Assembly (NCBI RefSeq): GCF_036507355.1 | Contig: NZ_AP027877.1 | Reading direction: 5' to 3' (one strand) | Source: Escherichia coli | GTDB taxonomy: Bacteria; Pseudomonadota; Gammaproteobacteria; Enterobacterales; Enterobacteriaceae | DNA length: 64,000 bases | Shown here: piece after piece, positions 16,313-26,675 of the stretch | Position numbering within the stretch: the stretch's first letter is position 1 | Layout: the number at the start of each line of letters is the position of its first letter | The notes under the pieces: generated by a model | Seen by the model: the letters and a program-made list of their open reading frames with translations, nothing else | What the model was told of the DNA's origin: nothing | Databases searched by the model: none | Program-made: the position numbers and the translations under genes

Positions 16313-18031
16313 ATGCGTACTAGCCAATACCTGCTCTCCACTCTCAAGGAGACACCTGCCGACGCCGAGGTGATCAGCCATCAGCTGATGCTGCGCGCCG
16401 GGATGATCCGCAAGCTGGCCTCCGGGTTATATACCTGGCTGCCGACCGGCGTGCGCGTTCTGAAAAAAGTCGAAAACATCGTGCGTGAAGAGATGAACAA
16501 CGCCGGTGCAATCGAGGTGTCGATGCCGGTGGTTCAGCCAGCCGATTTGTGGCAAGAGAGTGGTCGTTGGGAACAGTACGGTCCGGAACTGCTGCGTTTT
16601 GTTGACCGTGGCGAGCGTCCGTTCGTACTCGGCCCAACTCATGAAGAAGTTATCACTGACCTGATTCGTAACGAGCTTAGCTCTTACAAACAGCTGCCGC
16701 TGAACTTCTATCAGATCCAGACCAAGTTCCGCGACGAAGTACGTCCGCGTTTCGGCGTCATGCGTTCCCGCGAATTCCTGATGAAAGATGCTTACTCTTT
16801 TCATACTTCTCAGGAATCCCTGCAGGAAACCTACGATGCAATGTATGCGGCCTACAGCAAAATCTTCAGCCGCATGGGGCTGGATTTCCGCGCCGTACAG
16901 GCCGACACCGGTTCTATCGGCGGCAGCGCCTCTCACGAATTCCAGGTGCTGGCGCAGAGCGGTGAAGACGATGTGGTCTTCTCCGACACCTCTGACTATG
17001 CAGCGAACATTGAACTGGCAGAAGCTATCGCGCCGAAAGAACCGCGCGCTGCTGCTACCCAGGAAATGACGCTGGTTGATACGCCGAACGCGAAAACCAT
17101 CGCGGAACTGGTTGAACAGTTCAATCTGCCGATTGAGAAAACGGTTAAGACTCTGCTGGTTAAAGCGGTTGAAGGCAGTAGCTTCCCGCTGGTTGCGCTG
17201 CTGGTGCGCGGTGACCACGAACTGAACGAAGTTAAAGCAGAAAAACTGCCGCAGGTTGCAAGCCCGCTGACTTTCGCGACCGAAGAAGAAATTCGTGCCG
17301 TGGTTAACGCCGGTCCGGGTTCACTGGGTCCGGTAAACATGCCGATTCCGGTGGTGATTGACCGTACCGTTGCGGCGATGAGTGATTTCGCTGCTGGTGC
17401 TAACATCGATGGTAAACACTACTTCGGCATCAACTGGGATCGCGATGTCGCTACCCCGGAAGTTGCGGATATCCGTAACGTGGTGGCTGGCGATCCAAGC
17501 CCGGATGGCCAGGGTACGCTGCTGATCAAACGTGGTATCGAAGTTGGTCACATCTTCCAGCTGGGTACCAAGTACTCCGAAGCACTGAAAGCCTCCGTAC
17601 AGGGTGAAGATGGCCGTAACCAAATCCTGACTATGGGTTGCTACGGTATCGGGGTAACGCGCGTAGTGGCTGCGGCGATTGAGCAGAACTACGACGAGCG
17701 CGGCATCGTATGGCCTGACGCGATCGCGCCGTTCCAGGTAGCGATTCTGCCGATGAACATGCACAAATCCTTCCGCGTACAAGAGCTTGCTGAGAAACTG
17801 TACAGCGAACTGCGTGCACAAGGTATCGAAGTGCTGCTGGATGACCGCAAAGAGCGTCCGGGCGTGATGTTTGCTGATATGGAACTGATCGGTATTCCGC
17901 ACACTATTGTGCTGGGCGACCGTAACCTCGACAACGACGATATCGAATATAAATATCGTCGTAACGGCGAGAAACAGTTAATTAAGACCGGTGACATCGT
18001 CGATTATCTGGTAAAACAGATTAAAGGCTGA
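16313..18031 (+). CDS. proS: prolyl-tRNA synthetase
   Basis: ORF track 16259..18031 begins at an upstream TTG; the ATG at 16313 ([20 protein letters not shown]...) gives the expected 572-aa protein. Confidence 0.93.
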
Positions 18032-18040
18032 TGCCAGAAA

Positions 18041-18068
18041 GGGTCCTGATTTCAGGGCCCTTTTTTAC
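18041..18068 (+). terminator. rho-independent terminator after proS
   Basis: Hairpin gggtcctgatttcagggccc followed by T7. Confidence 0.6.
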
Positions 18069-18390
18069 AGGGATTGTATAAAATGGATAAACCAAAGGCG
18101 CACTACCGCCTGTTTCTCCCCTGCTTTCTTTTGCTTTCGGCCTGCACCGTTGATATCAGACAACCAGACTCATCAGCCACAGCGGTAGATGCTGAGGCGA
18201 AAACATGGGCAGTCAAATTCCAGCATCAAAGCTCTTTCACCGAACAATCAATAAAAGAAATAACTGAAACCGATCTCAAACCCGGCGATTTGCTGTTCTC
18301 CTCAAGCCTGGGGGTAACCTCATTTGGTATCCGGGTATTCAGCACTTTGAGGTGTACTGGCAATAGCGGACACTACCATTTGTTCTTTTT

Positions 18391-19209
18391 TTAAGCAGCC
18401 ATCTGATGATATTTTTCCCTGAAGGCTGCCGGGGAGATATTCCCCAGACGAGAGTGACGACGCTGACGATTGTAGAAAATCTCAATGTATTCCCGTATTA
18501 CTGAGATGGCTTCATCCCGGTTATTAAAACGATAGTGGCTCAGGCTCTCATTTTTCAGCGTTCCCCAGAAGCTTTCCATCGGAGCGTTGTCGTAACAGTT
18601 ACCTTTACGCGACATTGATGTTTTCAGACCAAACTGCTCCTGTATGACCCGGTAATCGTATGCGCAGTACTGTGAACCTCGATCAGAGTGGTGGATTAGC
18701 CCGACAGGTGGGCGCTGGCTCCTGAGCGCCATAAACAGGGCTTTACCTGTCAGCTCTTTTGTCATGCGCTCTCCCATGGCGTAGCCGACAATTTCGCACG
18801 TATAAACATCTTTGATGCCAGCGAGGTACAACCATCCCTCCTGTGTGGCAACATACGTCAGGTCCGCCACCCAGACCTGATTTGGTGCTGTAGGAGCGAA
18901 CGTCTGGTTCAGCAGATTTGGCGCAACTGGCAGATTGTGGTTCGAGTTCGTAGTCGCTCTGAACTTGCGTTTCTGCTTACAGCGTAGCCTTAGCTCCTTA
19001 CGAAGACGTGCCAGTCGGTCACGACCAACGATGATGCCATTCTCTGCCAGCTCCGTCTGGAGCCGCCGGGTTCCATATGTTTCGCGAGTGCGGATATGTG
19101 CCACCTTAATCTCCAGTTTTAGCCGCTCATCACTTTGTTTTCTGTCTGAGGGTTCATGCTGTACCCAGTTGTAATAACCGCTCCTGGATACACCAAATAC
19201 CTGACACAT
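18391..19209 (-). CDS. IS3-family transposase OrfB (DDE integrase domain), expressed as OrfAB fusion by -1 frameshift
   Basis: 272-aa ORF with rve/DDE catalytic region (…HHSDRGSQYCAYDY… NCYDNAPMESFWGTLKNE…); coordinates are the ORF from first in-frame start, the true reading frame begins upstream at the slippery site. Confidence 0.85.
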   Translation of the reverse strand: MCQVFGVSRSGYYNWVQHEPSDRKQSDERLKLEIKVAHIRTRETYGTRRLQTELAENGIIVGRDRLARLRKELRLRCKQKRKFRATTNSNHNLPVAPNLLNQTFAPTAPNQVWVADLTYVATQEGWLYLAGIKDVYTCEIVGYAMGERMTKELTGKALFMALRSQRPPVGLIHHSDRGSQYCAYDYRVIQEQFGLKTSMSRKGNCYDNAPMESFWGTLKNESLSHYRFNNRDEAISVIREYIEIFYNRQRRHSRLGNISPAAFREKYHQMAA

Positions 19210-19244
19210 CGCTTCAATGGGAAATTGTTGTCGCCATTGTTCGA

Positions 19245-19547
19245 TTAACGCGTATTTTTCAGCGACTCCTGTGCAAAATACGCTGTTGCTTTTTTTAATA
19301 TATCTCGCTCAAGGCGAGCTTCATTTAACGCCTTACGCAGTTGCAGAATTTCAGATTCCAGTTCAGCCACCGTGCGGGAACCAGGAGTACCGAGCCCTTT
19401 TCTGGCGGCGGTAACCCATTGTCCTAAAGTGCCTTCAGGAAGAGATAATCGGGAAGCGCCTTCACTGATCGAAAGTTGATTTTCAAGAACCGTTCTGACA
19501 GCTTCGGCTTTGAACTCTTTAGAGTAACGTTGGGTTTTTCTGCTCAT
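19245..19547 (-). CDS. IS3-family transposase OrfA (HTH DNA-binding, leucine zipper)
   Basis: 100-aa ORF MSRKTQRYSKEFKAEAVRTV...; ends just after an A-rich slippery sequence. Confidence 0.85.
   Translation of the reverse strand: MSRKTQRYSKEFKAEAVRTVLENQLSISEGASRLSLPEGTLGQWVTAARKGLGTPGSRTVAELESEILQLRKALNEARLERDILKKATAYFAQESLKNTR
19287..19296 (-). other. programmed -1 ribosomal frameshift site of the IS (A-rich slippery sequence TTAAAAAAAG)
   Basis: OrfA codons tta aaa aaa gca (LKKA) lie where the orfB frame overlaps; typical IS3-family A AAA AAG-type motif. Confidence 0.6.
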
Positions 19548-20179
19548 TATTAGCTCCTTCTGATGCCATTCTATTTCAGGAAGGAGTGTCCGTTAAACTC
19601 AGGCTACCTCACTTCTTCCGTCAGTCATGTGGCTATCTATCTGGGTGATAATAACGTTGCAGAAGCGACGGGCGCTGGCGTCCAGATTGTTTCCCTTAAA
19701 AAAGCCATGAAGCACAGTGATAAGCTTTTCGTCTTACGAGTCCCGGACCTTACCCCGCAACAAGCCTCAGATATCGCCGCATTCGCCAATAAAATCAAAG
19801 ATAGCGGTTATAACTATCGCGGCATTGTCGAGTTCATTCCCTTTATGGTGACCCGCCAGATGTGCTCACTAAATCCGTTCTCCGAGGATTTTCGCCAACA
19901 GTGCGTCAGCGGCCTGGCGAAAGCGCAGTTAAGCAGTGTGGGCGAAGGAGACAAAAAGTCGTGGTTTTGTTCGGAATTTGTCACTGATGCATTTGCCAAA
20001 GCCGGGCATCCGCTTACGCTGGCGCAATCGGGCTGGATTAGCCCTGCCGATCTGATGCATATGCGTACTGGCGATGTCTCTGCGTTTAAGCCCGAAACGC
20101 AGTTACAGTATGTTGGGCACCTGAAGCCAGGGATTTATATCAAGGCGGGTCGCTTTGTTGGTTTGACCCGGTGATAAAG

Positions 20180-20300
<121 letters not shown>

Positions 20301-20373
20301 AAAACGTGCAAATTCAAAATGTTGAAATATATCCTTCTGGCCTGTTTTGCGTTTGTTTCTGTCTCAAGACGGG

Positions 20374-21084
20374 TTACTGCCCCAAACTACTGCAATCCTT
20401 GTTTGGGTAAAATTTACCTGCCGTATCGGGCGCTAATACTTTGGTTGGCGCACCGGTATCCGGATTAGCCTCAAGCGTAAAGTGACCTTCTACTGACAGT
20501 AACACCGGTTTTTCACTGTGACCGCGCGCAGCCAGGTAGCCACGCTCCAGCTCTGCGTTATTCGCTACCATGAAACGTTTTCCGGTCGCGCAATCAGTGA
20601 AGGTCGCCGCATCAGCCATATAAAAATACATGCCCCGCAGGGTCATCGGCGTCATGGGTAAACTGGATTGTGCCGGTTCCAGCGTATAGTTGAATTGCGA
20701 TTCAATCGGATTGCCTTCACGATCGAGCATCTCCAGCGCATCGCCTTTCGCCCGATAATATGACTTTTCACCTTTGCTGTCGGTTAATACCAGCTTGTCA
20801 GCGGTTCGCGCCCATGTACCGTAGGAAGCGAAGGAGGAAGGTTCTTCACGAGCACCGAGATAACGCTCATTCATCACCCATGTTCCGTCTTTTTCGAGGA
20901 ACAGAGAGGTTTCGATTCCTTCGCAATCGGCACACGGCAGCACGCCGCGCCAACTTTGCGGCATCGGTTTCAGTTCGGCAGCCTGCGCCGGAGAAAGCGT
21001 ATCGACTTCGGCCCGATTATTACAACCCATCAGAGTAAAGAGGCTGATTACAGCCATCGCTGTCACTATCGCTTTTTTCACCAT
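20374..21084 (-). CDS. nlpE: envelope-stress/copper-homeostasis outer-membrane lipoprotein NlpE (CutF)
   Basis: 236-aa ORF, ATG start; lipobox LFTLMGCNN; CxxC motif LPCADCEG. Confidence 0.92.
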   Translation of the reverse strand: MVKKAIVTAMAVISLFTLMGCNNRAEVDTLSPAQAAELKPMPQSWRGVLPCADCEGIETSLFLEKDGTWVMNERYLGAREEPSSFASYGTWARTADKLVLTDSKGEKSYYRAKGDALEMLDREGNPIESQFNYTLEPAQSSLPMTPMTLRGMYFYMADAATFTDCATGKRFMVANNAELERGYLAARGHSEKPVLLSVEGHFTLEANPDTGAPTKVLAPDTAGKFYPNKDCSSLGQ

Positions 21085-21097
21085 CCATTCCTTCTTT

Positions 21098-21520
21098 TTA
21101 TTCCTGACCGCTGCGTACTTTGCCGCGCATCGCCTTCACGCTTGATTTTTGTGCTTTCGATGCCAGCCTGCGCTCTTTCGATGCACGGGTGGGCCGCGTG
21201 GGTCGTCGGGCTTTTTGTTCTGTTGTTAAATCTTTAATCACTGCCACCAGCCGGGCCAGCGCCGCTTCGCGGTTCAGTTCCTGATTGCGGTATTCCTGTG
21301 CCTTAATGACAATTACGCCATCACTGCTGATCAAATGATGGCTGGCGGCGAGCAGACTCTCTTTGTAATACTCTGGCAGGCTGGATGCCCGAATGTCAAA
21401 ACGCAGATGAATGGCCGTTGAGGTCTTATTAACATGCTGCCCGCCCGCGCCCTGCGCACGAATGGCGGTGATCTCAAGCTCACCATCGGGAATAGCAACA
21501 TGTCGGGAAATCACAATCAT
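21098..21520 (-). CDS. arfB: peptidyl-tRNA hydrolase ArfB (YaeJ), alternative ribosome rescue factor
   Basis: 140-aa ORF with GGQ motif ([15 protein letters not shown]) and basic C-terminal tail. Confidence 0.93.
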
Positions 21521-22062
21521 GAAGGTTGTTGCCAGGCGGTTAAGTTCACTTCCAGATTATTCTTATCATCCGATAACCAGATCACGCCATCCTGAATCGT
21601 TGCCTGCAGCGTCATGGTACGATCGGCAAAGGCGCTTACTTTCGCCAGTTGTTCATCGTCCAGATACCAGACGGAAAGATTGGCAAACTGCACACATTTG
21701 CTCTGATTTTGCTGCCACCAGATTTGCGCCGCCCGACTATTATAGGTAAACAGCGCCACTTCTGCGGCCTGGGTGCAGGCTTTCTTAATCCGCCGCTCAT
21801 CCGGCAGCCCCAGCTCAATCCACAAATCAATGCCCAGGTGATCGTTACGCAGCCACGCTTCCGGCTCATCATCGGCACACAAACCACGGGTAAATTGCAG
21901 ACGTTCATCAGCATATTTCAGCCACGCCAGCAAGCGCAGCATCATACGCTCCTGGGTTTCTGAAGGGTGGCGCGCCAGCGTCAGAGAGGCATCGAGAAAC
22001 TGGTTGCGGTCGAGATCGGCCACATTAACCGTCGCTTTATAAATTGTCGCTTTAAGCGCCAT
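21517..22062 (-). CDS. yaeQ: conserved protein YaeQ
   Basis: 181-aa ORF, ATG start, 4-bp overlap with arfB; synteny. Confidence 0.9.
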
Positions 22063-22227
22063 AAGAAAACTCCTTTCGAATCAGGAGGCCATTGTAACGG
22101 AATACGTGCAGTTGCGGCGCTGATATTGCAGAAATGAGTGTGGTATAGTCACCTTGCGAAACAGAGTTTATCTTCGTAGGCTTAGACTTGCATCCACGGT
22201 TAAGTCAGAGTGCTGACAGGAGGGCAT

Positions 22228-22428
22228 GTGGAAAAATATTGTGAGTTAATACGCAAGCGGTACGCGGAAATCGCCAGCGGAGACTTAGGATACGTTCCGG
22301 ACGCGCTGGGCTGCGTTTTGAAAGTGCTGAATGAAATGGCTGCCGACGACGCCCTTTCTGAGGCTGTCAGGGAAAAAGCAGCATACGCTGCGGCAAACTT
22401 ACTGGTGAGCGATTATGTCAATGAATGA
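22228..22428 (+). CDS. yaeP: small protein YaeP (UPF0253)
   Basis: 66-aa protein from GTG at 22228 ([28 protein letters not shown]...); ORF track starts 6 codons earlier at another alternative start. Confidence 0.75.
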
Positions 22429-22675
22429 TACGTATCAACCAATCAATTGTGATGATTACGATAATCTTGAGCTCGCCTGCCAGCATCATTTAATGCTGAC
22501 ACTTGAGCTGAAAGATGGCGAAAAATTGCAGGCAAAAGCCAGCGATTTAGTCTCCCGCAAAAATGTGGAGTATCTGGTCGTCGAGGCCGCTGGCGAAACC
22601 CGTGAGCTACGTCTGGATAAAATTACCAGCTTTAGCCACCCGGAAATCGGTACGGTGGTGGTGAGCGAGTCCTGA
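22421..22675 (+). CDS. rof: Rho-binding antiterminator Rof (YaeO)
   Basis: 84-aa protein [35 protein letters not shown]...; overlaps yaeP stop. Confidence 0.85.
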
Positions 22676-22727
22676 TTGACTTTCGCCGGATGCGACGCTT
22701 AATGCGTCATATCCGGCCTTCACTTAA

Positions 22728-24023
22728 CTAAGCGTTTCGCTGCCAGACAAAACTTATGCCATTCTCACCTTCAGCCACACCTTCTTGCGTCACAAATACC
22801 CCTGCCGCCGCAATCAGCGTTTCGCCATAAAACAGCAGTGGCGTGGTGTCACGTAGCCACGGCGGCACGCCCAGCTCTTGCCAGATTTTCTTTAGCTTAC
22901 GTCCGCCGTTACGCCCGACAATATGCAGCAATCCTGGCGCTTTGAAACGCACGCTGACCGCTTCGTCTGCACGCGGAGGGCGAATAGCACCTCCCGCATT
23001 AAGCTGTACACTTCCCAGCCCCGCCGGTAATTCCAGCGGTTGAAGCCACGTCTGCCACGGCACAATGTTTTCGCTTTGCCCGGTGACGGATTTAATCCAC
23101 CACAGTTGCGACTGATAGCGTCGGATTTCAAACGCGCCCAAACGTAAACAGGGGGAGGCATCTTCCCGCGCCAGCGCCACTTCCTGCCAGATCCTCACCA
23201 ACGCGTCGCGGGAAGGCATCGGTGCATTCTGCCCTGCCAGCCAGCGGCGGATAATCGCCGCGCGGCGGGCATCACTCATCGCCAGCATTGGCACAATCTG
23301 CAGCGTCCCCTGCGGCGATTGACAGTGTGCTAAATCATCCGCCAGCAGTTCATCCAACAGGCTCTCTTGTTCAGCACAAAGTGCGGCGCTGCGGGCCGTT
23401 GCTTCGGCAAAATGCGGCCAACGCTGCTGCAATAACGGCACTATGCGCAGGCGCAGAAAGTTACGATCATATGAGTCGTCCTGATTACTTTCGTCTTCAA
23501 TCCAGCGTAAACCATGCGCCAATGCCCACTGCTCCAGTTCCCCCCGCGTGCGGGCGAGCAACGGGCGGATAAGCCGTGTTCCGGCAAACTCCGAAACTTC
23601 CCCCATAGCCGAAAGCCCGGCAGGACCGCTACCGCGTTTTAGCGCCAGCAGAAAAGTTTCACATTGATCGTCGAGATGTTGCGCAGTGACCAGCACTTCA
23701 CCGGGTAACAGGGTACGAGCAAATGCCTGATAACGCGCCTGCCGCGCCTGGGCCTCAATGCCCAGTCCTTCTTGCGCAAGTTGCACGCGCTCGACCAACA
23801 GCGGCACCAGCCACTGTTGGCAGATGTTCTCGCAATGCATAACCCAGGCGTCGGCATTGGCACTTAAACCGTGATGCACATGAATAGCGCGCAGAGTGAC
23901 GCCCGGATTTTCCGCCCGCCACTGCACCAACTGATGCAGCAGAACGGTGGAGTCAAGCCCGCCGCTAAAGGCCACCAGAATCTGGCGTGAGGTGAGAAGT
24001 TGTCTTTTGAGCGTGAGTGTCAT
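22728..24023 (-). CDS. tilS: tRNA(Ile)-lysidine synthetase
   Basis: 431-aa ORF, ATG start; PP-loop ATPase motif SGGLDS. Confidence 0.92.
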
Positions 24024-24087
24024 GATGGTGCAATTTTACAGTAGCAATGCCCGGCACGTTACCGGGCAAATGCGGCGATGACAAGCC

Positions 24088-24477
24088 TTACTGCTCATAC
24101 AGTTCCAACGGCAGCCCGTCCGGATCGTTAAAGAAGGTGAAGCGTTTTTGCGTGTATGGATCGACACGGATGGCTTCACACTTCACGTTATGGCTTTCAA
24201 GGTGCGCCACTGCCGCATCGATGTCATCAACGCTAAAAGCCAGATGACGCAGGCCGCAAGCTTCCGGTCGGCTGGGGCGCTCCGGCGGGAACGGAAATGA
24301 GAAAAGCTCAATCACATATTGCCCATTAAGCGCCAAATCCCCTTTCCACGAGTCGCGCGCTTCGCGATAGACTTCGCTTTGCAGCGTGAAACCAAGAATA
24401 TCGCAGTAGAAAGCTTTGCTCACCGCATAATCCGTCGCAATAATCGCAATATGGTGAACCTGTTTTAAACCCAGCAT
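24088..24477 (-). CDS. yaeR: glyoxalase/VOC-family protein YaeR
   Basis: 129-aa protein from MLGLKQVHHIAIIATDY...; ORF track begins 9 codons upstream at an alternative start. Confidence 0.85.
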   Translation of the reverse strand: MLGLKQVHHIAIIATDYAVSKAFYCDILGFTLQSEVYREARDSWKGDLALNGQYVIELFSFPFPPERPSRPEACGLRHLAFSVDDIDAAVAHLESHNVKCEAIRVDPYTQKRFTFFNDPDGLPLELYEQ

Positions 24478-24533
24478 AACGTCTCCTTTATTTGTTAACA
24501 GCACGTTACTCGCCCGGAAGCCGCTCTGGCAAG

Positions 24534-26675
24534 TTATCCCGCCATTTTTAGGACTCGTACGCGGTAAACGCCGTCTTCGTCCTGTTTCGCGCCGTGAATA
24601 TCCGTTTCAAAACCGGGGTAATGTTGCCCTACGGAACAAAGCATCAGTAGAAAATCGAGTACCGTGCGGCTCTCTTTGGTCAGCATTTCTCCAGGCATCA
24701 ACAGCGGTACGCCAGGAGGATAAGGCAGGATCATATTTGCCGATACTCTACCGACCAGTTGTTCCAGCGCAATGGTTTCTACTTCACCTTTAATCTGTCT
24801 CTGCCATGCCTGATGTGGCGTCATGATCATCTCCGGCAAAGTATCGAATGCCCGCAACATCAAACCGGGAAGATCGTGTTTACGAATTAGCTTATGGATC
24901 CCTTGCGCCAGATCCTGAATACGCATATTGCGGTAGAAATCGGGATCTTCTGCGTACAGATCCGGAAGCATATTTTTGATTCGCAGATTGAGATCGTAAG
25001 AGCGTTTAAATTCCGTCAACCCACGCAATAATCCCATTGCTTTGGTTTTATCGATGCCAATACTAAAGAGAAACAGCAGGTTATATGGGCCGGTTTTCTC
25101 TACCACGATCCCACGCTCATCGAGGAACTTCGCCACCAGCGCCGCCGGGATCCCCTCCTCGCTCATATTGCCCTGCTCGTCCATCCCCGGCGTCAGAATA
25201 GTGACTTTAACCGGATCGAGGAACATATGATCGGCATCCGCATCGTTAAAGCCGTGCCATTGTTCGCCAGGCGCAACGGGCCAGCATTCGGCCTCATCCA
25301 CCTGCGGCGGTTGCCAGATATCGAAAAACCAACCGTCAGACTCTTCCCGCAGCCGCTGGACCTCTTTGCGAAAATGCAGCGCCCGCTCCACCGAACGGTT
25401 AATCAGCCGTTTGCCCGGATTACCACGCAGCATCGCTGCTGCCGTCTCAACCGAAGCAACAATGGGATAACTGGGCGAGGTGGTGGTATGCATCATAAAG
25501 GCTTCGTTAAACGCCTCTTCGTCATACTCACCTTTAATGTGGATCAGCGAAGCCTGCGATAACGCCGCCAGCATTTTGTGGGTCGATTGCGTTTCGAAGA
25601 TCACTTTTCCCGCAACACGCTCACCGCTCATACCACTTTTACCCTGGTAGATCGGATGAAAATGGGTGTACGGCACCCAGGCAGAATCGAAGTGGATCGA
25701 GGGGACATCCAGCGTCTGTTTGATCCAGTCGGTGTTGTAGAGCAAGCCATCATAGGTGGAGTTGGTGATCACCGCATGAACCGGCCATTGTGCCTGCGTG
25801 GTGGCAGCGACTTTCTCTTCGATGCTGTCACGAGTAAATTCACGGCGCGGGATCCCACCCAGAATCCCCAACGCATTACGCGTCGGTTTCAGCCAGACTG
25901 GCACTACATCGTTCATCATCAACAGATGCGCCAGTGATTTATGGCAGTTGCGGTCGATCAACAGCGTACTGCCGGATGGCGCGGCGTACATACCCACAAT
26001 TTTGTTCGACGTCGATGTTCCGTTGGTAACGATATAACTCTGTTCCGCGCCAAAAGTCCGCGCGATGTACTCTTCCGCTTCCAGGTGTGGCCCGGTGTGG
26101 TCGAGCAACGAACCAAGCTCGGTGACCGAAATAGAGACATCAGCCTTAAGAGTATTCCCGCCGAAAAAATCATAAAACAGACAGCCAACCGGGCTTTTTT
26201 GATATGCGGTGCCGCCCATATGCCCCGGCGTACAAAAGGTGTACTTCCGCTCTTTGACGTAGGTAAACAAGGCTTTCGTGAACGGCGGTGTAATGTTATC
26301 AAGATATTCGTCGGTGTACTGACGCATACGAATGGCGATATCTTCCGCCTGCCCCAGCGCATATTCAAAAAACCAGAGCGCCATCCGCATATCCTGCACG
26401 CTGACATCCATCGTCGAGTGGGTGTTGATGAAGGCATAAAGCGGGAGATATTCATTAAGCTGATTGATATCGCTACATAAATCGAGGCTGTACTCATCCC
26501 AGTCAAAAATCACGCCGCAAATTCGAGGGTTATGTTCGATAAATTTCAGCAAATCAACGCTGTTTTGTGGCCAGATAATCTGAAAGCCTTGCGCCACCAG
26601 CGCCGACTCCAGTTCTTTGATGGGCTCATCTTTATAAAAGACGCCATGCGGTCCCATAATGGCAATGATGTTCAT
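24534..26675 (-). CDS. ldcC: constitutive lysine decarboxylase (PLP-dependent)
   Basis: 713-aa ORF, ATG start; fold-III decarboxylase PLP site (…STHKMLAA…). Confidence 0.95.
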   Translation of the reverse strand: MNIIAIMGPHGVFYKDEPIKELESALVAQGFQIIWPQNSVDLLKFIEHNPRICGVIFDWDEYSLDLCSDINQLNEYLPLYAFINTHSTMDVSVQDMRMALWFFEYALGQAEDIAIRMRQYTDEYLDNITPPFTKALFTYVKERKYTFCTPGHMGGTAYQKSPVGCLFYDFFGGNTLKADVSISVTELGSLLDHTGPHLEAEEYIARTFGAEQSYIVTNGTSTSNKIVGMYAAPSGSTLLIDRNCHKSLAHLLMMNDVVPVWLKPTRNALGILGGIPRREFTRDSIEEKVAATTQAQWPVHAVITNSTYDGLLYNTDWIKQTLDVPSIHFDSAWVPYTHFHPIYQGKSGMSGERVAGKVIFETQSTHKMLAALSQASLIHIKGEYDEEAFNEAFMMHTTTSPSYPIVASVETAAAMLRGNPGKRLINRSVERALHFRKEVQRLREESDGWFFDIWQPPQVDEAECWPVAPGEQWHGFNDADADHMFLDPVKVTILTPGMDEQGNMSEEGIPAALVAKFLDERGIVVEKTGPYNLLFLFSIGIDKTKAMGLLRGLTEFKRSYDLNLRIKNMLPDLYAEDPDFYRNMRIQDLAQGIHKLIRKHDLPGLMLRAFDTLPEMIMTPHQAWQRQIKGEVETIALEQLVGRVSANMILPYPPGVPLLMPGEMLTKESRTVLDFLLMLCSVGQHYPGFETDIHGAKQDEDGVYRVRVLKMAG

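What the first reader, a model, noticed from the sequence alone, without database searches (positions are those of the whole stretch)
19563..20174. IS-end / yaeF fusion ORF could still express the C-terminal part of YaeF
An ORF starts inside the IS end (19563) and reads in frame into the yaeF 3' fragment, giving a 203-aa product whose first 17 residues are IS-derived. It retains the region with conserved Cys and His residues (…KSWFCSEFV…, …GHPL…) that I would expect to be the papain-like catalytic residues of an NlpC/P60 fold, but it lacks the signal peptide and lipobox. IS3-family ends often carry outward-reading -35 elements, so a cytoplasmic truncated product is conceivable rather than a clean null.
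Basis: inference. Interest (0 to 1): 0.25.

Follow-up and report, generated by a model that had tools for sequence, protein, structure and literature searches.

The report
IS600-broken yaeF gene, leftover ORF
A mobile element (IS600) has split the lipoprotein gene yaeF, and the 203-codon reading frame across the junction is an ordinary by-product of that insertion that shows no convincing promoter and no ribosome-binding site, and would encode an incomplete enzyme domain.

Summary
ORF 19563..20174 (+) exists and encodes 203 aa. Its first 16 codons and one further base lie inside a 1264-bp IS600 (18348..19611, transposase on the minus strand, 3-bp duplication CTT). The rest is yaeF codons 88-274.

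YaeF is a circularly permuted NlpC/P60 enzyme. Its catalytic residues are His93 (SVSHVAIY, 5 residues after the junction), Glu105, Tyr153 and Cys207. All four lie in the 3' fragment. The 'GHPL' histidine is not conserved and is not catalytic.

The fragment still lacks the first ~29 residues of the conserved ~200-residue domain: strand beta1 with the superfamily GD motif, and the following helix. It also lacks the signal peptide and lipobox.

The promoter argument fails. In IS3-family elements the outward -35 sits in IRR, and yaeF's 3' part abuts IRL. A promoter at the IS tip would also start downstream of the ATG. That would leave GTG 19629, which loses His93.

ATG 19563 has no Shine-Dalgarno pairing (0 kcal/mol). 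Only two weak promoter-like sites with 19-nt spacers lie upstream.

Verdict: an ordinary, recent insertional pseudogene. Expression was not measured.

The parts
18083..18347 (+). yaeF 5' fragment: codons 1-88 plus one base. It carries the signal peptide, lipobox LSAC (Cys21), an N-terminal extension, beta1 with the GD motif (Asp69) and helix 78-87 (Ser80).
   Evidence: Matches positions 1-88 of NCBIfam NF008552. Secondary structure from the AlphaFold2 model. Conservation.
18083..18394 (+). Stub ORF of 103 aa: YaeF residues 1-88 plus 15 IS-encoded residues (LRCTGNSGHYHLFFF), behind the native start codon.
18345..18347 (.). Left copy of the 3-bp target-site duplication, CTT.
18348..19611 (-). 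IS600 (IS3 family), 1264 bp. IRR is at 18348..18374 and IRL at 19585..19611. orfA is 19547..19245 and orfB is 19209..18391.
   Evidence: 99.5-99.8% identical to annotated IS600 copies. Ends and inverted repeats. Pfam HTH_Tnp_1 and rve domains.
18358..18363 (-). Outward-facing -35-like hexamer TTGCCA in IRR. It points away from the 3' fragment. With TAGCCT in IRL it would form a junction promoter (18-nt spacer) in a circle intermediate.
   Evidence: Architecture as described for IS911 in PMC9330008.
19568..19596 (-). Inward transposase promoter in IRL: TTAACG-17-TAGAAT. It is the only sigma-70-like site the standard scan found in 17900..20400.
19419..19449 (+). Weak promoter-like site TTGTCC-19-GATAAT, antisense to orfA.
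   Evidence: My lenient scan. It has a 19-nt spacer and was not reported by the standard scan.
19495..19525 (+). Weak promoter-like site CTGACA-19-TAGAGT, about 38 nt upstream of ATG 19563.
   Evidence: It has a 19-nt spacer and no extended -10 element.
19563..20174 (+). The reported IS-end/yaeF fusion ORF, 203 aa.
   Evidence: Residues 17-203 match NF008552 positions 88-274.
19612..19614 (.). Right copy of the target-site duplication, CTT.
19626..19628 (+). Codon of catalytic His93 (fusion residue 22). The next codon, GTG 19629, is the first in-frame start outside the IS.
   Evidence: Aligns with His49 of 3kw0. Nearly invariant. Positions.
19662..19664 (+). Codon of Glu105, the third member of the triad.
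   Evidence: Invariant in alignment A1. Aligns with Glu64 of 3kw0.
19968..19970 (+). Codon of catalytic Cys207 (WFCSEF).
   Evidence: Aligns with Cys154 of 3kw0. Nearly invariant.
20007..20009 (+). It is not conserved.
   Evidence: the homologues have V, I, L or R at this position.

Best explanation
This is a recent insertional pseudogene. IS600 transposed into codon 88/89 of the core gene yaeF, which encodes an outer-membrane-type lipoprotein with a circularly permuted NlpC/P60 domain. The insertion duplicated CTT.

The 203-codon ORF is a mechanical consequence of the insertion. The yaeF frame happens to stay open for 20 codons into the left end of the IS, and one of those codons is ATG.

The ORF is most likely not translated to any meaningful level. 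Its start lies in the complement of the transposase ribosome-binding site, so it has no Shine-Dalgarno pairing. No good promoter lies upstream on that strand. The IS end facing it is IRL, not the -35-bearing IRR.

If some product were made, it would stay in the cytoplasm without signal peptide or lipid anchor. It would also lack the first core beta-strand (the GD motif, which pairs with the invariant Arg130) and the adjacent helix of the catalytic domain, four residues before the catalytic His. It is therefore expected to misfold or be inactive.

Shown: the anatomy, the residue assignments and the absence of initiation signals. Inferred: no translation and no folding.
For: - IS identity, ends and duplication come. 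A clean reconstruction gives a known 274-aa YaeF.
- yaeF is contiguous in 5420 of 5426 complete E. coli genomes, and none of them carries this insertion.
- Catalytic residues were mapped with a 42-sequence profile against 3kw0 and 2if6. His93 = His49, Glu105 = Glu64, Cys207 = Cys154, Tyr153 = YiiX Tyr115, Asp69 = Asp25, Ser80 = Ser36 (numbering from PMC3142127).
- Asp25 of the GD motif hydrogen-bonds Arg98 of beta5 in 3kw0. Asp69 is nearly invariant and Arg130 is invariant in YaeF homologues.
- The AlphaFold2 model (pLDDT 89, pTM 0.87) places beta1 at 70-74 and a helix at 78-87, both upstream of the break. The His strand 93-99 is the first retained element. The closest solved folds are 3kw0 and 2if6.
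- In at least 40 multidomain homologues the homologous region begins at YaeF residues 54-67 and ends at 257-263. The break therefore lies inside the domain.
- Predicted SD pairing energy is 0 kcal/mol at ATG 19563, against -4.9 for the native yaeF start and -8.0 for orfA.
- The standard promoter scan finds nothing on the + strand.
- The outward -35 of IS3-family elements is in IRR, which here is at the far end.
- A predicted 11-bp hairpin (19553-19563 with 19576-19587) includes the A of the AUG.
Against: - No expression data exist for this strain, so transcription and translation were not measured.
- Two weak + strand promoter-like sites (9 of 12 matches, 19-nt spacers) lie within 150 nt upstream of the ATG, where about 0.2 are expected by chance.
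- A 2025 study estimates that at least 26% of IS3-family elements carry outward promoters. It also found reporter activity in 2 of 5 ends that had no predicted promoter signature (PMC12095673).
- Read-through from the yaeF promoter across the IS is possible.
- E. coli can initiate translation weakly without an SD sequence.
- All four catalytic residues are retained.
- The claim that the truncated domain cannot fold is an inference. I did not model the fusion product.
Confidence: 0.88

Rival explanations
1. The 203-aa fusion protein is made at a low level, from weak outward transcription in the IS600 left end or from read-through, and persists as a cytoplasmic enzyme with partial activity. The allele would then not be a clean null.
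For: - The catalytic His93, Glu105, Tyr153 and Cys207 are all in the 3' fragment.
- Two weak promoter-like sites lie upstream of the ATG.
- IS3-family ends are enriched for promoter signatures (PMC12095673).
- The fragment scores 379 bits against the YaeF equivalog model.
Against: - There is no SD pairing, and the AUG sits at the edge of a predicted hairpin.
- The standard scan finds no + strand promoter.
- The ORF abuts IRL rather than IRR.
- Beta1 with the GD motif and helix 78-87 are missing from a domain whose N-terminal boundary is conserved at residues 54-67.
- The nearly invariant pair Cys172/Cys185 suggests a periplasmic disulfide that would not form in the cytoplasm. This point is an inference.
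Confidence: 0.04
2. A shorter product is made from a start outside the IS: GTG 19629 (181 aa) or ATG 19707 (155 aa). It would be driven by a promoter formed at or beyond the IS tip, for example CAGTCA-19-GATAAT ending at 19652.
For: - An automatic annotation of an E. coli genome calls exactly the 181-aa GTG-start ORF a 'hypothetical protein' (BED23736.1).
- GATAAT at 19647-19652 is a 5-of-6 match to the -10 consensus.
Against: - The 181-aa product starts one residue after His93, so it has no catalytic His. The 155-aa product also lacks Glu105.
- Predicted SD energies are 0 and -0.1 kcal/mol.
- The gene call is not evidence of expression. Another such call, P0288, proved to be a mis-set start in an intact gene.
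Confidence: 0.04
3. The insertion is a reversible off-state. IS600 could be excised by the IS-excision enhancer (IEE) together with the transposase, restoring yaeF, as shown for IS600 in lacZ of STEC O121:H19.
For: - IEE-mediated IS600 excision reactivates lacZ (PMC9397093).
- This IS copy has intact orfA and orfB and is about 99.7% identical to other copies.
- yaeF shows no decay beyond the insertion. The reconstructed protein is identical to a known intact one.
Against: Whether the source genome encodes iee is unknown, because the gene is not in the window. Nothing suggests selection for switching yaeF. This is a possible event, not a demonstrated function.
Confidence: 0.04

Closest known systems
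YaeF of E. coli (NCBIfam NF008552; Pfam PF05708 Peptidase_C92; the YaeF/YiiX permuted NlpC/P60 family; solved relatives 3kw0 BcPPNE and 2if6 YiiX)
   Same: The two fragments together are a complete yaeF, identical in protein sequence to a known E. coli allele once the IS is removed. They show the permuted His-Glu-Tyr-Cys order and the same fold as 3kw0 and 2if6.
   Different: The gene is split at codon 88/89. The fusion ORF replaces residues 1-87 with 16 IS-encoded residues. It therefore lacks the signal peptide, lipobox, beta1/GD motif and helix 78-87.
IS600 (IS3 family) insertional pseudogenes, such as IS600 in lacZ of STEC O121:H19 (PMC9397093) and the IS-driven gene loss of Shigella (PMC7373316)
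   Same: A full-length 1264-bp IS600 with a 3-bp duplication inside a chromosomal gene, with the transposase opposite to the gene.
   Different: This insertion site in yaeF was not found in 5426 complete E. coli genomes or in 100,044 species-representative genomes. yaeF is not mentioned in the supplements of PMC7373316.
IS3-family hybrid or outward promoters that activate neighbouring genes (IS911/IS2 junction-promoter architecture)
   Same: IS600 has a -35-like TTGCCA 10 nt from its IRR tip and TAGCCT in IRL, compatible with a junction promoter.
   Different: The -35 end faces away from the fusion ORF. The ORF's start codon is 49 nt inside the IS, so a tip-plus-flank hybrid promoter could not include it.

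Membership tests
YaeF/YiiX permuted NlpC/P60 (Peptidase_C92, NF008552) | Significant match to the family models | tested here: met
   PF05708 gives E = 2.3e-10 for the fusion and 1.1e-12 for the intact protein. NF008552 gives 379 bits over positions 88-274 against a cutoff of 279.
YaeF/YiiX permuted NlpC/P60 (Peptidase_C92, NF008552) | Permuted order of catalytic residues: His, then a polar residue, then Tyr, then Cys near the C-terminus | tested here: met
   His93, Glu105, Tyr153 and Cys207 align with His49, Glu64 and Cys154 of 3kw0 and with Tyr115 of YiiX (numbering).
YaeF/YiiX permuted NlpC/P60 (Peptidase_C92, NF008552) | Complete catalytic domain, including beta1 with the superfamily GD motif | tested here: not met
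   For the fusion ORF, Asp69 (GD), Ser80, beta1 (70-74) and helix 78-87 lie in the 5' fragment. The domain boundary in homologues is at residues 54-67.
YaeF/YiiX permuted NlpC/P60 (Peptidase_C92, NF008552) | Export signal and lipobox, as in E. coli YaeF | tested here: not met
   The lipobox LSAC with Cys21 is present only in the 5' fragment. The fusion N-terminus MPFYFRKECPLNSGYL has no hydrophobic core, which can be read directly from the sequence.
YaeF/YiiX permuted NlpC/P60 (Peptidase_C92, NF008552) | Cys-dependent hydrolase or acyltransferase activity | not testable with these tools
   The substrate of YaeF itself is unknown. Lipid-directed activity is proposed for relatives.
IS600 / IS3 family | About 1.26 kb with TG...CA ends and imperfect IRs, a 3-bp duplication, and orfA (HTH) plus orfB (DDE rve) with an A-run frameshift site | tested here: met
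   1264 bp with a CTT duplication. HTH_Tnp_1 and rve domains. 99.5-99.8% identity to annotated IS600. An A7 run lies in the orfA/orfB overlap (sequence).
IS-borne hybrid promoter driving the adjacent ORF | An outward -35 in the IS end that faces the ORF, a correctly spaced -10, and a transcription start upstream of the start codon | tested here: not met
   The facing end is IRL. The -35-like TTGCCA is in IRR at 18363..18358. The ATG is 49 nt inside the IS. The standard scan finds no + strand site.

The most novel reading that the evidence does not exclude
Weak outward transcription from the IS600 left end (candidate sites 19419-19449 and 19495-19525) plus SD-independent initiation yields a small amount of a cytoplasmic, N-terminally rewired permuted NlpC/P60 fragment. 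That fragment keeps its His/Glu/Tyr/Cys site and retains some lipid- or amide-directed activity, so the insertion would relocalise an envelope enzyme rather than abolish it.
Probability: 0.02. Interest if true: 0.3.

Novelty: already known. Interest (0 to 1): 0.06.

Why it matters
It matters little biologically. This is one more IS-disrupted gene in an E. coli/Shigella-type chromosome, and YaeF has no known function.

Its practical value is for annotation. Residual ORFs at IS/gene junctions can score above family cut-offs: here 379 bits against a cutoff of 279. They are sometimes deposited as 'hypothetical proteins' although they are pseudogene fragments.

It also shows that in permuted NlpC/P60 enzymes the catalytic His precedes the Cys. 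Judging a fragment by 'Cys and a nearby His retained' is therefore misleading.

Tried and rejected
- Single-sequence AlphaFold2 of intact YaeF gave pLDDT 33 and was discarded. It was repeated with a 42-sequence alignment.
- Exact-sequence look-ups of the 203-aa ORF, the 103-aa and 106-aa stubs and the 155-aa variant found nothing. The 181-aa GTG variant exists as BED23736.1, but its contig could not be fetched. The source genome therefore stays unidentified.
- A scan of species-representative genomes for the exact 41-nt junction found nothing.
- yaeF and b0193 are not mentioned in the supplements of the Shigella IS study.
- P0288 (184 aa, 'MSHVAIY...') looked like an independent disruption at the same site. 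It is only a mis-set GTG start in an intact gene.
- A literature search for IS600 outward promoters found nothing.
- The GC-skew profile gave no usable signal for Rho-dependent termination.
- Rfam found no RNA family at the junction.
- A hybrid promoter at the IRR side, antisense into the yaeF 5' fragment, was considered. By eye the flank offers no acceptable -10.

Full report
**Observation**

The ORF 19563..20174 on the + strand is real: it has an ATG start and encodes 203 aa. The DNA between 18348 and 19611 is a full-length IS600. It is 1264 bp long and 99.5-99.8% identical to copies annotated as 'IS3-like element IS600 family transposase' in many E. coli genomes.

The element has TG...CA termini, imperfect terminal inverted repeats and a 3-bp direct duplication, CTT, at 18345-18347 and 19612-19614. 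Its two transposase frames are on the minus strand:
- orfA, 19547..19245, carries HTH_Tnp_1.
- orfB, 19209..18391, carries HTH_21 and rve.

The end next to the yaeF 3' fragment is therefore IRL, the transposase-upstream end. The ATG lies 49 nt inside the IS.

Deleting the IS and one CTT gives an 828-nt gene. Its 274-aa product is identical to a YaeF protein present on 30 E. coli contigs. The insertion is thus recent, and the rest of the gene has not decayed.

**Is the ORF more than chance?**

No. The yaeF frame stays open for only 20 codons into the IS, and an in-frame TAG sits at 19551, four codons before the ATG. My arithmetic puts the chance of at least one ATG/GTG/TTG among the 19 remaining codons at about 60%.

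**What the protein is**

The fusion product matches Pfam Peptidase_C92 ('permuted papain-like amidase, YaeF/YiiX') and NLPC_P60. It covers positions 88-274 of the NCBIfam YaeF equivalog, and the 5' stub covers positions 1-88.

I collected homologues and aligned 42 full-length ones as A1. I then searched the PDB with that profile. The alignments to 3kw0 (BcPPNE) and 2if6 (YiiX), read with the residue numbering of Xu et al. 2011 (PMC3142127), give these equivalences:

| YaeF residue | Equivalent in solved structure | Note |
|---|---|---|
| His93 | His49 (3kw0) | catalytic |
| Glu105 | Glu64 (3kw0) | catalytic; invariant in A1 |
| Cys207 | Cys154 (3kw0) | catalytic |
| Tyr153 | Tyr115 (YiiX) | catalytic |
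| Asp69 | Asp25 (3kw0) | GD motif |
| Ser80 | Ser36 (3kw0) | near the ligand |

The true catalytic His is five residues downstream of the junction. The family is circularly permuted, with His before Cys.

**What the fusion lacks**

An AlphaFold2 model built from A1 has pLDDT 89 and pTM 0.87. Its closest solved folds are 3kw0 and 2if6. The model's elements fall on either side of the break at residue 88/89:

| Position relative to the break | Elements |
|---|---|
| Before (lost) | signal helix 5-18; two short N-terminal strands; beta1 at 70-74 (GDLLF); a helix at 78-87 |
| After (retained) | His strand 93-99; Glu strand 102-107; further strands and helices; the Cys helix 207-217 |

In 3kw0 the GD aspartate at the start of beta1 hydrogen-bonds Arg98 of beta5. 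In YaeF homologues Asp69 is nearly invariant and Arg130 is invariant.

In more than 40 homologues the domain is embedded in a larger protein. In those, homology to YaeF begins at residues 54-67 and ends at 257-263. The conserved domain is therefore about residues 60-260, and the insertion removes its first ~29 residues.

The fusion also lacks the lipobox (LSAC, Cys21). The nearly invariant pair Cys172/Cys185 suggests a periplasmic disulfide; this is an inference. I infer that a cytoplasmic 203-aa product would be unstable or inactive.

**Expression signals: promoters**

The standard scan of 17900..20400 finds one sigma-70-like site. It is the inward transposase promoter on the minus strand (19596..19568), and nothing is found on the + strand.

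That is true in general, but it applies to IRR. IS911 has an outward -35 in IRR and a -10 in IRL (PMC9330008). In this IS600 a TTGCCA lies 10 nt from the IRR tip (18363..18358, minus strand). With TAGCCT in IRL it would form an 18-nt-spaced junction promoter. That end faces the yaeF 5' fragment, not the fusion ORF.

A hybrid promoter at an IS tip would also start transcription beyond 19611, which is downstream of ATG 19563. The first in-frame starts after the tip are:
- GTG 19629, the codon right after His93, giving 181 aa without the catalytic His.
- ATG 19707, giving 155 aa without His93 or Glu105.

My lenient scan finds two weak + strand sites upstream of the ATG:
- TTGTCC-19-GATAAT at 19419-19449.
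- CTGACA-19-TAGAGT at 19495-19525.

Both match 9 of 12 positions and both have unfavourable 19-nt spacers. About 0.2 such sites are expected in that stretch. A 2025 study estimates that at least 26% of IS3-family elements have outward promoters, and it found some activity in ends without predicted signatures (PMC12095673). Low-level transcription across the junction cannot be excluded, whether from these sites or by read-through from the yaeF promoter.

**Expression signals: translation**

Translation looks worse than transcription. The 20 nt before ATG 19563 give 0 kcal/mol of pairing with the anti-SD, the weakest value possible. For comparison, the native yaeF start gives -4.9, orfA gives -8.0, and the median of all 901 ATGs in the window is -2.4.

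The sequence there, GCTCCTTCTG, is the complement of orfA's own SD. It also forms an 11-bp predicted stem with 19576-19587 that includes the A of the AUG. That fold is not better than shuffled sequences (z = -0.7).

**Context**

yaeF is a core gene. It is contiguous in 5420 of 5426 complete E. coli genomes. None of them carries this insertion, and neither does any of 100,044 species-representative genomes. The flanks are ordinary E. coli DNA, 95-99% identical to nearly all genomes.

The next gene, nlpE, is convergent with yaeF, so no polar effect on a downstream gene is expected. YaeF's own function is unknown. Relatives bind or act on lipids.

An automatic annotation has deposited exactly the 181-aa GTG-start ORF as 'hypothetical protein' BED23736.1. 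This shows how such fragments enter the databases.

IS600 insertions can be reversed by IEE-mediated excision (PMC9397093). Whether the source strain has iee is unknown.

**Verdict**

This is an ordinary IS600 insertional pseudogene, and the ORF is a by-product of the insertion. The best estimate is that no functional product is made (confidence about 0.88). The remaining doubt comes from the lack of expression data, not from any positive evidence for expression.

Noticed in passing
window 18083..18394 (+): The 5' stub keeps the native start, signal peptide and lipobox. It encodes a 103-aa pre-lipoprotein: 88 YaeF residues plus the IS-encoded tail LRCTGNSGHYHLFFF. It is more likely to be expressed than the 3' fusion ORF, and would give a small orphan lipoprotein.
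   Followed up: partly
window 18083..20174 compared with 20200..26000: The yaeF allele here is only 90-95% identical to 5176 of 5423 E. coli records, and at least 99% identical to just 3. The adjacent 5.8 kb is 95-99% identical to nearly all genomes. yaeF therefore seems much more polymorphic than its flanks, possibly through recombination or relaxed or diversifying selection.
   Followed up: partly
window 19553..19587 (IS600 left end): An inverted repeat, GCTCCTTCTG with CAGGAAGGAG, spans orfA's SD. The inward promoter's predicted start (about 19561) lies inside it. Only transcripts entering from outside would carry both arms and hide the SD, which resembles the protection against external activation known from other IS elements. 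This is an inference from the fold and the promoter.
   Followed up: no
window 20219..20295: A strong Rfam match to naRNA4 (RF02564, 92.8 bits on the minus strand, 47.3 on the plus strand). This is a REP-type palindromic element between yaeF and nlpE.
   Followed up: no
homologues of YaeF: The protein database holds many other damaged yaeF alleles. Examples are frameshifted 185-, 193-, 211- and 230-aa forms and in-frame internal deletions such as P0062 and P0055, some with dozens to hundreds of member sequences. The gene appears to be lost repeatedly in some lineages.
   Followed up: partly
homologues of YaeF: Many distant relatives carry the YaeF-like domain at the C-terminus of proteins of 400-1500 aa, and some carry several copies (up to 9 matched stretches in P0172). 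The architecture is reminiscent of secreted or polymorphic toxins, such as the permuted NlpC/P60 T6SS effector Tox-Act1 (PMC12994826).
   Followed up: no
YaeF residues 172 and 185 (window 19863..19865 and 19902..19904): Two cysteines are nearly invariant across the family. They sit on adjacent helices in the model and may form a structural disulfide in the periplasm.
   Followed up: no
locus L001 3001..3555: An intact yaeF in GCA_054663195.1 is annotated with a start at an internal GTG (Val91), giving a 184-aa 'hypothetical protein'. This is an annotation error, not a truncation.
   Followed up: yes
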